DNA of 20,897 bases from a virus: IMG/VR virus record IMGVR_UViG_3300032271_002180; one strand, written 5' to 3'. The position numbers and the translations under genes are program-made. The notes below the pieces were generated by a model. It had not been told where the DNA came from. It saw nothing but the letters and a program-made list of their open reading frames with translations, and ran no database searches. Positions 12,450-18,132 of the stretch are shown here, piece after piece (position 1 is the first letter of the stretch; each line of letters begins with the position of its first letter).

Positions 12450-13118
12450 TCACGCCTTGGTGATGATGCAGCTCAACATGGTTGATCGGCCCATGTAGGT
12501 CCTGGTATGACAGCGATATCCGGCATCATGTGCGGTGGTTTCAATTGCACCTGATTGGATCTTACTCCATTTCCATGCCATGTTGCCTCTCCAGTGTTTG
12601 TATTTGCGAAGCTTGAGGCGTTGTGCCCATCCAAGGAGGAAAGGACTGAGGCCGTGACCGTTACCACGAGTGGCAACCACGATGGTCATCACCTTGACAT
12701 CCCTGGAAAACGCTTCCTTGGCCAATGAGAGATGGTAGGGCATAAGGTACCCCGTGTCATCAAAATCGATCACATCCACTTGGCGTCCTAGCTTCCATTG
12801 ATCATTAACCACATTGATCAGATCACCATGAACGACCTGCCCCTTAAAGCCGGTTCGTGTTGCCTCGGCGTTGAGATTTGATGCAAGAACAGCATCCCAA
12901 TCCACCATGATCTGGTTTTCTTCCTTGATACCATAGGAAGTGAGCTCTTTGCTGTGGCGAGTTAGTTGAGAATGATGCCCAGGGATGCTAACCCCAATGC
13001 CATCAAATTCTCGGCCGCTGTATGAAAGATTCACCGTTTCTTTTTGCCAGTCAATAACGTCGAGCTTTCCTGTGGTAGTTGTGGACACATACGCAAATCC
13101 GGATCTACCGATAGTCAT
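12450..13118 (-). CDS. HAD-superfamily phosphatase-like protein, possibly a polynucleotide 3'-phosphatase-like domain
   Basis: VDVIDFDDTGYL is HAD motif I (DxDxT). VKVMTIVVATRG is motif II (Thr). Spacing resembles the T4 Pnk phosphatase domain (VIFDVDGTL ... IVVVSGRESG). Likely start at MTIGRSGF (13118) with an AAGGA RBS. The first ~120 residues (N-terminal region) are unassigned. Confidence 0.45.
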   Translation of the reverse strand: MTIGRSGFAYVSTTTTGKLDVIDWQKETVNLSYSGREFDGIGVSIPGHHSQLTRHSKELTSYGIKEENQIMVDWDAVLASNLNAEATRTGFKGQVVHGDLINVVNDQWKLGRQVDVIDFDDTGYLMPYHLSLAKEAFSRDVKVMTIVVATRGNGHGLSPFLLGWAQRLKLRKYKHWRGNMAWKWSKIQSGAIETTAHDAGYRCHTRTYMGRSTMLSCIITKA

Positions 13119-13189
13119 TTTTTTTGGTCCTTGTTGCAAGTTCATGCGTCAATATAGCAAGTCAATGCAAAAAGTCAACTGTAAAAAGA

Positions 13190-13276
13190 TGGCGGAAGGC
13201 GGAGTATTCGAAACTCAGCCCCGAAGGGCCGCACTCCTTAGCAGAGAGGCGGTAACGCCCGTTACCTTCACCTTCC
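13190..13276 (-). tRNA. tRNA-Ser (GCU)-like, class II, CCA encoded
   Basis: Acceptor GGAAGGT / GCCTTCC. Anticodon loop CTGCTAA on a 4-bp stem. Variable arm CGGCCC-TTCG-GGGCTG. T-arm GAGT-TTCGAAT-ACTC. The D-region is unusual: GGTAAC-GGGC-GTTACC. Confidence 0.55.
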
Positions 13277-13362
13277 GTATGATTGGATGCCCGGGGTGGT
13301 TCCGCCCCACCAGTCTCTCGGTTCAGAGCCGAGGATTTTGCTGTTAAACTACCGGGCAATAT

Positions 13363-13503
13363 TGGTGGCTGGGGGACCAGGGCTCGAACCTGGATAAGCA
13401 GATTCAATTTTTGGTGATTCCGGATTTGCACCGTATTATACTATGCCCGTATTAATAGAGCAATCTCACCCAGTCTGCTGTCCTACCATTAGACGACCCC
13501 CAA
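13363..13503 (-). tRNA. tRNA (Pro-like, anticodon region CUGGGU) with a roughly 65-70 nt insertion in the anticodon loop. 3' terminus CCACCA.
   Basis: Acceptor TTGGGGG / CCCCCAG with U8. D-arm GTCT-AATGGTA-GGAC. Anticodon stem GCAGA ... TCTGC is split by the insert. T-arm CCAGG-TTCGAGC-CCTGG. The tandem CCACCA makes the exact 3' end ambiguous. Confidence 0.4.
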
Positions 13504-13510
13504 TTATGTA

Positions 13511-13590
13511 TGGCGCTCTGGACAGGAGTCGAACCTGCATGTGTCCAATTACTGTTTCAACGCTTTAGGAAAGCGAGCAGATACCAAAGC
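13511..13590 (-). tRNA. tRNA-like element: acceptor, anticodon-like hairpin (CCU loop), T-arm and CCA, but no D-arm
   Basis: Acceptor GCTTTGG / CCAGAGC. Hairpin CGCT-TTCCTAA-AGCG. T-arm GCAGG-TTCGACT-CCTGT. Discriminator G and CCA. Only 6 nt lie where the D-arm should be. 22 nt sit in the variable position. Confidence 0.3.
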
Positions 13591-13598
13591 AGCAAACT

Positions 13599-13672
13599 TG
13601 GTTGGCCGAGGAAGAATTGAACTTCCGACTAGGTCTTATCAGGACCTTGTTATACCATTTAACTATCGGCCA
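13599..13672 (-). tRNA. tRNA-Ile (GAU), CCA encoded
   Basis: Textbook cloverleaf. Acceptor TGGCCGA / TCGGCCA. D-arm GTTA-AATGGTA-TAAC. Anticodon stem AGGTC / GACCT with loop CTGATAA. T-arm GGAAG-TTCAATT-CTTCC. Discriminator A and CCA. 74 nt. Confidence 0.85.
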
Positions 13673-13735
13673 GTAACTTGGTATTTATAGCACATGTATT
13701 TGAAGCATGCAACCATTGATACGGTCACACAAAGA

Positions 13736-16127: not shown

Positions 16128-16212
16128 TGGTGGAGGAGGTGTGATTCGAACACACTCACCCAAAGGAGCGATTTTACAGACCGCCGCAGCTCTCCAACTC
16201 TGCAGCTCCTCC
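16128..16212 (-). tRNA. tRNA-Tyr (GUA), bacterial-type class II with a long variable arm, CCA encoded
   Basis: Acceptor GGAGGAG / CTCCTCC. D-arm GCAG-AGTTGGAGAG-CTGC. Anticodon stem GCGGT / ATCGC with loop CTGTAAA. 12-nt variable region. T-arm GTGTG-TTCGAAT-CACAC. Discriminator A and CCA. Confidence 0.78.
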
Positions 16213-16227
16213 ACGAAGCATTTCCTA

Positions 16228-16262
16228 ACTCGGGGGTGCTGCGCTTACATAACGCAGCACCC
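16228..16262. other. Perfect 11-bp inverted repeat (GGGGTGCTGCG cttacataa CGCAGCACCCC) upstream of tRNA-Tyr on the minus strand
   Basis: Read directly from the sequence. T-rich flank on the plus strand (TCCGTTCGTTTCTT). Confidence 0.5.
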
Positions 16263-16264
16263 CT

Positions 16265-16345
16265 CCGTTCGTTTCTTGCCCGTTGATCATTGGCACGCAT
16301 CCATGGTAGCTTGCGCCACCTCCGAGTCGAACCACTGGCCAACGG
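16265..16345 (-). tRNA. tRNA-like region with a T-loop motif (GGTTCGACTC) and a class-II-like D-arm (TGGCCAGTGGT). The cloverleaf did not resolve.
   Basis: Motifs read on the minus strand. There is extra sequence between the T-loop and the putative 3' end. Confidence 0.2.
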
Positions 16346-16690
16346 GCCAAATACGTTTCCTGATTCAATTGTCAAACAACAAACAAACTTCAAACCATTA
16401 AAAAACCCCGGTAAGCTAGCTGCTCCCGGGGTCCTTATCGCATGTGTGATTGTTAAATCACCCTAGGCGATGGACCCCCACGTAGGCTCATTGCTGGCCC
16501 AACGGCTAAACTGCTTGACGAGATGATAAATGGTATCCATTTGTGAAAGCTCTATATCCTTTGTGTGTGCTAGTTATTGCACAGTTTATTTAGCATGTCA
16601 ACCTCATCCACCGCGTTTTCTTTGGAAAAATCCTTAAAAATGCAATGGACGCTGTTGATGTTCGTGTTATACGTGCTTTTTATCGCCGCG

Positions 16691-17380
16691 TCAACCTGGC
16701 TTTCGCACGCTTGCGATGAAATATCCATTGTGCCAGTCACTGTTTTGATGTGCATTCGGTGGGTGGCTGCCGTCTAGGGTGGTGAATATCTCGATGGAGT
16801 CCACGATCAATCCAAGATCCTGGATGGCCCTCTGGGTTCCTGATTGCACGTCAAAGCTATTGTAATCGTCAACTATCAGCACAAACTCGTCATCAAGGGC
16901 CGGCATGGCTATCACGATGCCATCATACTGATCCTGCTCGGAATGCGGACCATCAAACATGTATGCGTTGAATCGTCCGATGCCGGAGAAATCCACCTTA
17001 CTAAAATCCTCTTGCAGGAACGTCACCGGATTGCGACCATTCTGGGCTCGCTGGATGTTTGCATGCAGCGTGTCTATGCTGCCAGGAAACACTCCCCACA
17101 TGTCAATGGCGGTGGCTGATACCGTGTTGCCCGATATGGCCGAACACAGGGTTGAGCCCAACCATGTGCCAACCTCGAGATAGCGTGCATCCGGCAGTGT
17201 TGAGATGATCAAGTTGATCATCTGTCGGTATCTCTTGCCACTCATTCCTTGCATCTCAAGAACCCACGGCTCAATGGTCAATGGTCCATCGAGAGCAAGA
17301 TCAAAGCATGATGTTATCAATGGCGTGTAGCGTAGATCCATCGATGAATCGATGGATCGGGTGATCCCGGCGTATGTCAT
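16691..17380 (-). CDS. Class I SAM-dependent methyltransferase (TylF/Methyltransf_24-like)
   Basis: YLEVGTWLGSTL is a motif I-like G-rich loop. AIDMW and FDGPH ... LDDEFVLIVDDYN follow. Start sits 3 nt after the lipoprotein stop. Confidence 0.55.
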   Translation of the reverse strand: MTYAGITRSIDSSMDLRYTPLITSCFDLALDGPLTIEPWVLEMQGMSGKRYRQMINLIISTLPDARYLEVGTWLGSTLCSAISGNTVSATAIDMWGVFPGSIDTLHANIQRAQNGRNPVTFLQEDFSKVDFSGIGRFNAYMFDGPHSEQDQYDGIVIAMPALDDEFVLIVDDYNSFDVQSGTQRAIQDLGLIVDSIEIFTTLDGSHPPNAHQNSDWHNGYFIASVRKPG

Positions 17381-17383
17381 TTG

Positions 17384-17584
17384 TCAATGGCATCTTTCAA
17401 TGCGTATGTAGCGTCCCGTCCTATGATCCCATGTGTTCTCAACATGGCAAATCGGGCGATGGGGCGGTATCACGTAAACCGGCGCAGGTCGATAGATCGG
17501 GCGGTGATGGTGTTCCTCGACATAGGCCGGCTGTGTGCATGCCACCAGTGCTAGCAATAACGGAAGGATGTAAAGATGTTTCAT
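17384..17584 (-). CDS. Small lipoprotein (66 aa) with a type II signal peptide (lipobox LVAC). Pro-rich mature region with two C-terminal Cys.
   Basis: MKHLYILPLLLALVAC: a positive n-region, a hydrophobic core and the lipobox L-V-A-C. Mature part contains RPIYRPAPVYVIPPHRP. Its start overlaps the upstream gene's stop (ATGA). Confidence 0.5.
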   Translation of the reverse strand: MKHLYILPLLLALVACTQPAYVEEHHHRPIYRPAPVYVIPPHRPICHVENTWDHRTGRYIRIERCH

Positions 17585-18132
17585 TTGATGCCTTGTTGTT
17601 CTTGTTGGATGTTGGACATGACCACCTTTTGCATGATGGCGTCGACGGCCATCTCCCCACTGGGTATGGTGTCAAATTTCACACCAAAGGTGTCGATCAG
17701 CAGCTCGACCCTGCGATCAAATTCCTTGGCCTCTTCCTCGTCCTTTTGATTCCGCCCGATCGGGTTGTAGTTGAAATTGCGGCGGAGAAGGAAGTTGTGG
17801 TTGGTGTATTGATCAAATACCTCCATCACTAGACGATTGAAATTTTCGCTCAAAACGTTCGGCCGAAGGTACACCAGTCCGAGTGGTATCGGGCTGTCGG
17901 TTATCACCCACTCTATGCCTGAATCCTTCAGCCTGCTGATCCTGCGATGTTGCTTGGCGAAGATGTAGATCTGGTCATCGAGTATGTTATATCTTTTTTC
18001 CCAGACCGCATCCTTGGCATATTCCATCGCTATCTCAACGTTTAGTCCTTTTTTCTTCATCTCATATAGCAATCCGGCTGCGGCTGTAGATTTTCCCACT
18101 CCGGGGCCTCCCCAAATATTCACCACCTTCAA
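17581..18132 (-). CDS. P-loop NTPase / nucleotide or polynucleotide kinase-like protein
   Basis: Walker A MKVVNIWGGPGVGKSTAAAGL, compared with T4 Pnk GCPGSGKST. 183 aa. TTG start with an AGGAG RBS 9 nt upstream. Confidence 0.65.
   Translation of the reverse strand: MKVVNIWGGPGVGKSTAAAGLLYEMKKKGLNVEIAMEYAKDAVWEKRYNILDDQIYIFAKQHRRISRLKDSGIEWVITDSPIPLGLVYLRPNVLSENFNRLVMEVFDQYTNHNFLLRRNFNYNPIGRNQKDEEEAKEFDRRVELLIDTFGVKFDTIPSGEMAVDAIMQKVVMSNIQQEQQGIK

What the first reader, a model, noticed from the sequence alone, without database searches (positions are those of the whole stretch)
12450..18132. Possible dispersed RNA end-healing toolkit in the tRNA island: kinase, HAD phosphatase and Tpt1-like protein
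The island contains three candidate parts. A P-loop kinase (17581..18132) has a Walker A like T4 polynucleotide kinase. An HAD phosphatase (12450..13118) has motif spacing like the T4 Pnk 3'-phosphatase domain. A protein with the Tpt1/KptA LYHGT motif (13987..14583) resembles the 2'-phosphotransferase that finishes tRNA ligation. Phages with large tRNA sets often carry repair enzymes against host anticodon nucleases. A 5'-kinase, 3'-phosphatase and 2'-phosphotransferase set would imply a eukaryote-like healing-and-sealing pathway, with the ligase elsewhere.
Basis: inference. Interest (0 to 1): 0.65.

Follow-up and report, generated by a model that had tools for sequence, protein, structure and literature searches.

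The report
Tpt1-like ADP-ribosyltransferase, not a repair kit
The three genes are real but are not a kinase/phosphatase/2'-phosphotransferase RNA-repair set: one is an ordinary P-loop NTPase, the "phosphatase" is a methyltransferase-fold protein, and only the third matters, as a member of an undescribed family of NAD+-using ADP-ribosyltransferases that resembles half of Tpt1 and lies near tRNA-end and ADP-ribose-processing genes in related phages.

Summary
All three ORFs are real and conserved, but the proposed toolkit does not hold.

- **"Kinase" (17581..18132, -).** It is a Pfam AAA_28 P-loop NTPase. It resembles T4 Pnk only over the 20-residue Walker A strand. In relatives it is syntenic with the replication module.
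- **The ART family.** It has 404 clusters and no Pfam model. It occurs alone or inside giant polyvalent phage proteins.
- **Its gene neighbours.** They repeatedly include CCA-adding enzymes, Nudix, 2H, cREC, ADP-ribosylglycohydrolase, an AAA_33 kinase and NAMPT. The window itself encodes an ADP-ribosylglycohydrolase at 9853..10692.
- **Its N-terminus.** MKIQELLTE|S resembles the T4 capsid-targeting sequence.

Best reading: an NAD+-dependent ADP-ribosyl transfer enzyme acting on RNA/tRNA ends, possibly delivered in the virion. The target and the chemistry are inferred, not shown.

The parts
13987..14583 (+). 198-aa single-lobe ADP-ribosyltransferase-fold protein (Tpt1 NAD+-lobe-like; invariant His17, Phe/Tyr59, Glu130, Asp133)
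13987..14013 (+). N-terminal leader MKIQELLTE, resembling the T4 capsid-targeting sequence with an L-x-E cleavage motif (inferred)
   Evidence: pLDDT is below 50 for residues 1-10. The same leader heads unrelated ORFs and multidomain relatives. T4 CTS MKTYQEFIAE (PMC8442874) and the gp21 motif L/I-x-E (PMC9026906).
9853..10692 (-). ADP-ribosylglycohydrolase, the likely partner or eraser for ADP-ribose adducts
   Evidence: Pfam PF03747 at 7.7e-63 and phrog_6572. A homologue lies directly next to the ART-like gene in L006, and a distant one lies nearby in L015.
12450..13118 (-).
17581..18132 (-).
   Evidence: AAA_28 at 2e-11, 44.8 bits against a cutoff of 27. phrog_2107 'thymidylate kinase'. Homologues occur in jumbo phages. 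Synteny RNase_T then AAA_28 then tRNA array in relatives. Matches T4 Pnk over the Walker A strand only.
5649..16212 (-). Array of 16 tRNA genes with encoded CCA ends in the three aligned; the setting of the ART-like and methyltransferase-like genes
   Evidence: ARAGORN. The 77-nt tRNA(GAG) at 14639..14715 is conserved next to the 3' end of the ART-like gene in L006.
6728..7417 (-). 229-aa protein of unknown function that carries the same N-terminal leader (MKILELLAES)
   Evidence: PWM score 25.0 bits; the 99th percentile of 5155 Met-started ORFs is -0.9. No Pfam or PHROG hit.
16691..17380 (-). Methyltransf_24-type methyltransferase immediately downstream of the P-loop gene
   Evidence: Pfam PF13578 at 1.2e-5 and phrog_1458.

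Best explanation
**Overall.** The three ORFs are not one pathway.
- The P-loop protein is an AAA_28 NTPase that belongs to the conserved replication-module border.
- The supposed HAD protein is a SAM-methyltransferase-fold enzyme conserved inside tRNA arrays.
- Only ORF 13987..14583 connects to NAD+-dependent nucleic-acid chemistry.

**What the third ORF is (shown).** It is a single-lobe ADP-ribosyltransferase of an uncharacterised family. Its NAD+-binding half is most like that of Tpt1/KptA.

**How it most likely works (inferred).**
1. The enzyme binds NAD+ through the conserved His-Gly-Thr, Phe/Tyr and Glu/Asp residues.
2. It expels nicotinamide and transfers ADP-ribose to a phosphate or other nucleophile at a damaged RNA (tRNA) end.
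3. The ADP-ribose product or adduct is cleared by the co-encoded ADP-ribosylglycohydrolase. In relatives, Nudix, 2H and cREC enzymes would do this.
4. A CCA-adding enzyme can then rebuild the tRNA 3' end.

**Delivery (inferred).** The N-terminal MKIQELLTE|S peptide suggests that the protein is packed into the capsid and injected, as T4 Alt and the T4 internal proteins are.
For: **Fold and sequence.**
- AlphaFold pLDDT is 83.
- The family profile finds seven Tpt1 PDB sequences at E 5.5e-4 to 3.5e-3, then DarT.
- 17 of 18 members hit PF01885 at the same place.

**Likely catalytic residues over 174 domain instances.**
- His17 166/168 and Thr19 167/168.
- An aromatic residue at position 59 in 167/168.
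- Glu130 166/166 and Asp133 165/166.

**Gene context, from 16 distinct ART-like loci including the window.**
- A PolyA_pol/CCA-adding gene lies within 0.05-3.5 kb in 6 loci: L001, L004, L009, L016, L017, L021.
- Three of the CCA-adding genes carry tRNA_NucTran2_2 and HD domains.
- Fusions exist: PolyA_pol + this domain + ART-PolyVal in P0139, and this domain + Nudix in P0095 and in the L022 ORF.
- Among 111 neighbouring proteins from 11 further loci, the commonest Pfam families are NUDIX (5), PolyA_pol (4), ART-PolyVal (3) and 2H phosphoesterase (2). ADP-ribosylglycohydrolase and NAMPT occur once each.
- L004 reads cREC, Nudix, a 289-aa ORF, an AAA_33 kinase, the ART-like gene, then a convergent CCA-adding gene.
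- An ADP-ribosylglycohydrolase lies next to the ART-like gene in L006 and 3.3 kb away in the window.
- The gene lies within or near tRNA arrays in the window, L006, L007, L015 and L025.

**Precedent.** The same neighbour set (2H, Nudix, cREC, nucleotide kinase, tRNA ligase) is the published signature of phage KptA-based and sirtuin-based RNA repair (PMC9503650 section 3.7.3).

**Leader.**. A relative, L001, is T4-like, with Gp23 and the S77 prohead protease.
Against: - No biochemical evidence exists.
[quoted passage not shown] The distal Arg aligns with an invariant Gly37.
- An invariant Glu/Asp before strand 5 is typical of transferases that modify proteins or bases, and of NADases. It is not typical of Tpt1.
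- The domain is common in polyvalent proteins beside GNAT, lysozyme, PBECR5 nuclease and other ART domains. That fits host-protein modification equally well.
- The window has no CCA-adding enzyme, 2H, Nudix or ligase gene.
- Nudix, 2H and ADP-ribosylglycohydrolase neighbours could instead serve against immune ADP-ribose or cyclic-nucleotide signals. The 2H neighbours also hit the Acb1 model.
- The leader could simply be the first helix of the domain.
Confidence: 0.42

Rival explanations
1. The ART-like protein is an injected, host-modifying ADP-ribosyltransferase that works like T4 Alt. It is packed in the head through its leader and delivered with the DNA. [quoted passage not shown] The ADP-ribosylglycohydrolase either limits that activity or reverses host ADP-ribosylation.
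For: - The leader resembles the T4 CTS and is shared with unrelated ORFs.
- The domain occurs in polyvalent proteins of up to 4678 aa, together with ART-PolyVal, GNAT, lysozyme and PBECR5. Such proteins are predicted to be virion-delivered effectors (PMC5512222).
- The invariant His, aromatic and Glu/Asp pattern matches the protein-modifying H-Y-E/D clades.
Against: - The closest sequence and structure relative is Tpt1, not a protein-modifying ART.
- This reading does not explain the recurrent linkage and fusion with CCA-adding enzymes, 2H and cREC, or the position within tRNA arrays.
Confidence: 0.28
2. The ART-like protein is an NADase or an enzyme that makes or destroys ADP-ribose-derived small molecules. 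Together with the ADP-ribosylglycohydrolase, Nudix, 2H and NAMPT it would counter NAD+-based or nucleotide-signal-based host immunity.
For: - Neighbours include Nudix, 2H proteins that also hit the anti-CBASS Acb1 model, NAMPT and an ADP-ribosylglycohydrolase.
- PMC9503650 argues that phage ADP-ribose-processing domains mostly target soluble ADP-ribose derivatives.
- An invariant Glu is compatible with NAD+ hydrolysis.
Against: - This does not explain the CCA-adding enzyme linkage and fusion, or the tRNA-array position.
- NAD+ depletion would harm a phage that also carries NAD+ salvage genes.
Confidence: 0.12
3. One reading: a dispersed 5'-kinase, 3'-phosphatase and 2'-phosphotransferase set that heals cleaved tRNA halves for a ligase encoded elsewhere, in the T4 Pnk or Trl1/Tpt1 style.
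For: - A P-loop protein and a protein similar to the Tpt1 NAD+ lobe do lie in a tRNA island.
- A relative, L029, encodes an RNA ligase (PF09414) 1.7 kb from the homologue of the 12450..13118 gene.
- L004 and L009 carry a true AAA_33 kinase next to or near the ART-like gene.
Against: - The 'phosphatase' has a methyltransferase fold.
- The kinase is AAA_28. It shares only the Walker A strand with T4 Pnk and is syntenic with the replication module.
- The Tpt1-like protein lacks the RNA lobe and the catalytic tetrad.
- The window contains no ligase and no AAA_33 kinase.
Confidence: 0.04

Closest known systems
Tpt1/KptA RNA 2'-phosphotransferase (Pfam PF01885; PDB 6E3A, 8TFI, 9LD3)
   Same: - It has the ADP-ribosyltransferase fold of the NAD+ lobe.
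- The first strand-helix unit is nearly identical: PRTLYHGTIKEFVPDILEHGLIPQ against PEVLYHGTARRFVKSIKEKGLQPQ.
- The genomic company (2H, Nudix, cREC, RNA-end enzymes) matches that described for phage KptA.
   Different: - There is no N-terminal RNA lobe. The protein starts about 10 residues before LYHGT, and the upstream DNA is a tRNA gene.
- There is no Arg-His-Arg-Arg tetrad.
- There is a roughly 20-residue insert before strand 2.
- Phe replaces the Tpt1 His in strand 2.
- Invariant Glu130 and Asp133 are absent from Tpt1.
- The Pfam score is below the cutoff: 15.7 against 26 bits.
ART domains of phage polyvalent proteins (ART-PolyVal, PF18760; Tox-ART-HYD2 clade) and T4 Alt
   Same: - It belongs to the same superfamily.
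- It shares polypeptides with ART-PolyVal in P0081, P0108, P0131 and P0139.
- Its leader resembles that of the head-packaged T4 proteins.
   Different: - The window protein gives no hit to PF18760 even at E of 1 or less.
- Its signature differs: H-F/Y-E plus D, against H-Y-D in ART-PolyVal and R-S-E in Alt.
- Packaging has not been shown.
Phage sirtuin-centred and KptA-centred NAD+-dependent RNA-repair neighbourhoods (Iyer et al. 2022, PMC9503650)
   Same: The same partner set occurs around the NAD+-using enzyme: 2H, Nudix, cREC and a nucleotide kinase.
   Different: - The central enzyme here is a different ART family.
- The recurrent partner is a CCA-adding nucleotidyltransferase rather than a tRNA ligase.
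- The window itself holds only the ADP-ribosylglycohydrolase partner.
T4 polynucleotide kinase-phosphatase (Pnk)
   Same: The 183-aa protein shares the beta1 strand and Walker A: KVVNIWGGPGVGKSTAAAGL against [20 protein letters not shown].
   Different: - Nothing beyond those 20 columns aligns.
- The Pfam family differs: AAA_28, not AAA_33.
- The 222-aa protein has no similarity to the HAD domain of Pnk and has a methyltransferase fold.

Membership tests
Tpt1/KptA RNA 2'-phosphotransferase | Match to Pfam PF01885 / NCBIfam equivalogs above the curated cutoff, across both lobes | tested here: not met
   PF01885 scores 15.7 bits against a cutoff of 26. The match covers only residues 8-34, against profile positions 95-122. 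NCBIfam NF002014 scores 18 bits against 239.
Tpt1/KptA RNA 2'-phosphotransferase | Two-lobe architecture with an N-terminal RNA-binding lobe | tested here: not met
Tpt1/KptA RNA 2'-phosphotransferase | [quoted passage not shown] | tested here: not met
   The first three residues lie in the absent lobe. In the profile alignment the distal Arg faces Gly37, which is kept in 166/167 instances.
Tpt1/KptA RNA 2'-phosphotransferase | NAD+ lobe with ART fold and an H-G-T motif | tested here: met
ADP-ribosyltransferase superfamily (H-Y-E type) | ART fold with conserved His (strand 1), an aromatic residue (strand 2) and an acidic residue before strand 5 | tested here: met
ADP-ribosyltransferase superfamily (H-Y-E type) | NAD+-dependent ADP-ribosyl transfer activity | not testable with these tools
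   This needs an enzyme assay.
HAD phosphatase (T4 Pnk 3'-phosphatase type) | HAD Rossmannoid fold with DxDxT at the end of the first strand, plus motifs II-IV | tested here: not met
Class I SAM-dependent methyltransferase | Seven-stranded Rossmann-like fold with a Gly-rich motif I and an acidic residue at the end of strand 2 | tested here: met
T4 Pnk-type 5'-kinase (Pfam AAA_33) | Family-level similarity beyond the P-loop | tested here: not met
   Pfam assigns AAA_28 at 44.8 bits and gives no AAA_33 hit at E of 1 or less. hhalign aligns 20 columns only. The profile finds no PDB kinase.
T4-type capsid-targeted internal proteins | N-terminal peptide of about 10 residues resembling MKTYQEFIAE and ending in L/I-x-E | tested here: met
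   The peptide is MKIQELLTE|S. Glu9 is conserved in at least 90% of close homologues. The same peptide occurs on other ORFs.
T4-type capsid-targeted internal proteins | Presence in the virion and cleavage by the prohead protease | not testable with these tools
   This needs virion proteomics. The only support is that a relative, L001, encodes an S77 prohead protease and Gp23.

The most novel reading that the evidence does not exclude
The protein is a virion-packaged, single-lobe Tpt1-like enzyme that uses NAD+ to strip terminal 2'(3')-phosphates from nuclease-clipped tRNA 3' ends. A CCA-adding enzyme can then rebuild those ends. This would be a ligase-independent, NAD+-dependent tRNA repair route injected together with the phage genome. 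The ADP-ribosylglycohydrolase, Nudix, 2H and cREC enzymes would dispose of the ADP-ribose by-products.
Probability: 0.15. Interest if true: 0.8.

Novelty: new variant of a known kind. Interest (0 to 1): 0.5.

Why it matters
Bacterial and phage Tpt1/KptA homologues have long lacked a known natural substrate. Here a family of 404 sequence clusters keeps only the NAD+ half of that enzyme. It is repeatedly linked or fused to CCA-adding enzymes, 2H, Nudix, cREC and ADP-ribosylglycohydrolase, and it carries a capsid-targeting-like leader. That gives a concrete, testable candidate for NAD+-dependent tRNA-end processing, or for an injected ADP-ribosylating effector, in very large phages. It also corrects two tempting motif-based mis-annotations: a DxDxT string read as a HAD phosphatase, and a Walker A read as Pnk.

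Tried and rejected
- **Nucleotide search.** Megablast of 12000..19000 against phage records found nothing.
- **Protein search against phage records.** tblastn of the ART-like and methyltransferase-like proteins found nothing. Both families are absent from deposited phage genomes.
- **PDB by sequence.** Single-sequence and profile searches gave nothing useful for the P-loop and methyltransferase-like proteins.
- **Structure libraries.** The AFDB50 fold library was unavailable. BFVD gave only weak matches, with E of 7e-3 or worse.
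- **Ligase hunt.** ORF 4058..5182 was considered as a possible ligase. It has no K-x-D/N-G motif, and its sequence looks glycosyltransferase-like by eye, which was not tested.
- **RNA ligase in other loci.** tblastn with the L029 RNA ligase found no copy in the window or any other locus.
- **Insertion duplication.** The two tRNA-Leu(GAG) genes flanking the ART-like gene are different tRNAs, 84 and 77 nt long, so they are not a target-site duplication.
- **Late promoter.** The ATAAATA motif upstream of the ART-like gene was tested as evidence for late expression. It also precedes tRNAs and homing endonucleases, so it gives no timing information.
- **First leader search.** A first loose regular expression for the leader was faulty. 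It was replaced by a position weight matrix.

Full report
**Setting.** The window carries 16 tRNA genes, all on the - strand, between 5649 and 16212. Homing endonuclease genes are interspersed among them. It has no near-identical relative among deposited phages. A 99%-identical copy of the P-loop protein sits on a JGI contig of exactly 20,897 bp, so the window is a whole contig and the rest of the genome cannot be searched. Other genes point to a very large phage:
- a DnaQ-like exonuclease;
- a protein with major-vault-protein domains, which matches only uncultured phages of 462-735 kb;
- synteny with contigs of 266-485 kb that carry DNA polymerase III alpha and a clamp loader.

**The observation.** All three ORFs exist, and each has conserved homologues. 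For the first ORF, the homologues support the start at Met10, giving 12450..13118. Their meaning differs in each case.

**The "kinase", 17581..18132 (-).**
- It matches Pfam AAA_28 above the curated cutoff (2e-11, 44.8 bits against 27). It also matches a PHROG labelled thymidylate kinase.
- It does not match AAA_33, the family of the T4 Pnk kinase domain.
- A profile of 18 homologues finds no kinase in the PDB by sequence.
- hhalign against T4 Pnk aligns only the 20 columns of strand 1 plus Walker A. The T4 Pnk sequence used was verified as 100% identical to the deposited T4 gene.
- In relatives the gene follows the RNase_T exonuclease at the edge of the replication module, just before the tRNA array. 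In L004 a more distant AAA_28 gene lies next to ClpS and a dCTP deaminase/dUTPase gene.
- It is therefore a widespread large-phage NTPase, most simply a nucleotide or nucleoside kinase. It is not a recognisable polynucleotide kinase.

**The "HAD phosphatase", 12450..13118 (-).**
- No sequence library recognises it.
- The AlphaFold model is confident (pLDDT 88). Its strand-helix order is that of class I SAM-dependent methyltransferases, ending in the characteristic beta-hairpin.
- G49-x-G51 and D82 are invariant, at the positions where motif I and the ribose-binding acidic residue would lie.
- The D-F-D-D-T string lies on strand 4, its Thr varies, and no later HAD motifs exist. hhalign against T4 Pnk gives probability 0.3%.
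- The HAD reading is refuted.
- The gene is conserved inside tRNA arrays in L027 and L028. In L029 it lies 1.7 kb from an RNA ligase gene, with Nudix, PTH2 and YqeY genes nearby. An RNA or tRNA substrate is a reasonable guess that remains untested.

**The "Tpt1-like" ORF, 13987..14583 (+): what matches.**
- Residues 11-44 align with the start of the NAD+ lobe of Clostridium thermocellum Tpt1.
- The family profile finds seven Tpt1 PDB sequences at E 5.5e-4 to 3.5e-3, and then DarT.
- 17 of 18 homologues give the same sub-threshold Pfam hit.

**The "Tpt1-like" ORF: why it is not Tpt1.**
- It begins about 10 residues before LYHGT, so the RNA lobe is missing. [quoted passage not shown]
- The position of the fourth Arg is an invariant Gly.
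- Across 174 domain instances the invariant residues are instead His17, Gly18, Thr19, Gly37, Tyr44, an aromatic residue at 59, Glu130 and Asp133. This is an H-aromatic-acidic pattern like that of transferases and NADases of the superfamily.

**The ART family.**
- An exhaustive profile search finds 404 clusters.
- None has a Pfam model of its own, and neither deposited phage genomes nor BFVD hold a clear member.
- The domain occurs alone or inside large multidomain proteins. Partners include ART-PolyVal, GNAT, lysozyme, a PBECR5 nuclease (in a 4678-aa protein), PARP-like domains, Nudix, and a PolyA_pol/CCA-adding module.
- This is the domain repertoire of the virion-delivered "polyvalent proteins" (PMC5512222).

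**Gene context of the ART family.** I gathered 16 distinct loci, including the window.
- A CCA-adding-type nucleotidyltransferase lies within 0.05-3.5 kb in six of them. It is fused to the domain in P0139.
- L004 reads cREC, Nudix, a 289-aa ORF, an AAA_33 kinase, the ART-like gene, then a convergent CCA-adding gene.
- In L006 the ART-like gene sits between tRNA genes and faces an ADP-ribosylglycohydrolase gene. The window has the same two genes 3.3 kb apart.
- Scanning 111 neighbouring proteins from 11 further loci gave NUDIX (5), PolyA_pol (4, three with tRNA_NucTran2_2 and HD domains), ART-PolyVal (3) and 2H phosphoesterase (2) as the commonest families. ADP-ribosylglycohydrolase and NAMPT each occurred once.
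- 2H, Nudix, cREC, a nucleotide kinase and RNA-end enzymes are the partner set that Iyer et al. describe for phage KptA-centred and sirtuin-centred NAD+-dependent RNA repair (PMC9503650).
- This is the main support for an RNA-end function. It is contextual evidence, not proof.

**The N-terminal leader.**
- The protein starts MKIQELLTE|S, and the family consensus is M-[KRL]-I-x-E-[LI]-L-x-E-[SN].
- The model is disordered over these residues.
- Very similar peptides head unrelated ORFs. Examples are window 6728..7417 (MKILELLAES) and ORFs in L004, L006, L014, L021 and L025. Their scores lie far above the 99th percentile of 5155 Met-started ORFs.
- The same kind of peptide also heads multidomain relatives whose ART domain lies hundreds of residues downstream.
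- The peptide resembles the T4 capsid-targeting sequence MKTYQEFIAE (PMC8442874). It ends in the L/I-x-E motif cut by the T4 prohead protease (PMC9026906).
- One relative, L001, is T4-like, with Gp23 and the S77 protease.
- I infer that the protein may be packed into the head and injected, as T4 Alt is. This has not been shown, and the peptide could simply be the first helix of the domain.

**Verdict.** The dispersed healing toolkit is not supported. Two of its three parts are misassigned, and the three genes share no conserved linkage. What is there is an uncharacterised, single-lobe, Tpt1-related ADP-ribosyltransferase, with an ADP-ribosylglycohydrolase gene 3.3 kb away in the same tRNA array. 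My confidence by reading:
- About 0.4: an NAD+-dependent enzyme acting on RNA/tRNA ends within an ADP-ribose-processing network.
- About 0.3: an injected Alt-like modifier of host proteins.
- About 0.1: an NADase or an enzyme acting on ADP-ribose-derived signals.

This is a new variant within a known superfamily and a known type of phage system, and it is of moderate interest.

Noticed in passing
window 946..3450 (-): An 834-aa protein has Major Vault Protein domains (MVP_shoulder at 1.1e-20, Vault_3 at 1e-8). It lies in a GC-rich stretch (0.62-0.64) where both strands are open. Its only matches among deposited phages are uncultured huge phages LR756500/501/503 (462-735 kb), at 38-39% identity.
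   Followed up: partly
L027 3794..5431: The AAA_28 homologue carries an intein (Hom_end/LAGLIDADG) inside the Walker A motif: GPGTGK|AQPLD...VVTHN|STTAAG. The intein-free version is in L028.
   Followed up: partly
window, e.g. 13976, 15414, 9799, 8670, 20259, 7433, 13687, 12234, 11391, 5749: TAAATA, mostly as ATAAATA and resembling the T4 late promoter TATAAATA, occurs 21 times. It lies 4-10 nt before the ATG of several genes and just upstream of several tRNA genes. This suggests a general promoter element with nearly leaderless transcripts.
   Followed up: partly
window 6728..7417 (-): A 229-aa ORF with no family match starts with the same leader as the ART-like protein (MKILELLAES). It is a candidate second capsid-targeted protein.
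   Followed up: partly
window 14965..15298 (-): ARAGORN calls three tRNA-Trp(CCA) genes in the window, two of them adjacent to an odd tRNA with a two-base anticodon call. One of the Trp calls is 91 nt long. These may be intron-containing or degenerate tRNAs.
   Followed up: no
window 14639..14715 (-) and L006 10536..10612: A 77-nt tRNA called Leu(GAG) lacks the long variable arm. It is conserved immediately after the 3' end of the ART-like gene in two phages. The canonical 84-nt tRNA-Leu(GAG) lies on the other side of the gene.
   Followed up: partly
window 5942..6664 (-), 4058..5182 (-), 20411..20839 (-): The first is an Asp/Asn beta-hydroxylase-like protein (PF05118 at 1.6e-14). The second is a 357-374-aa protein that looks glycosyltransferase-like by eye and is conserved near the ART-like gene in L007/L008 (57% identity). 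The third is a PVGPV-repeat ORF at the contig end.
   Followed up: no
L004 8451..10556 (+): Three consecutive genes (a 289-aa unknown, an AAA_33 kinase and the ART-like gene) all start M-[RL]-I-x-[ED]-[LI]-[IL]. The ART-like gene is split into 116-aa and 89-aa ORFs in this widely sampled phage, which suggests a frameshift or programmed slippage.
   Followed up: partly
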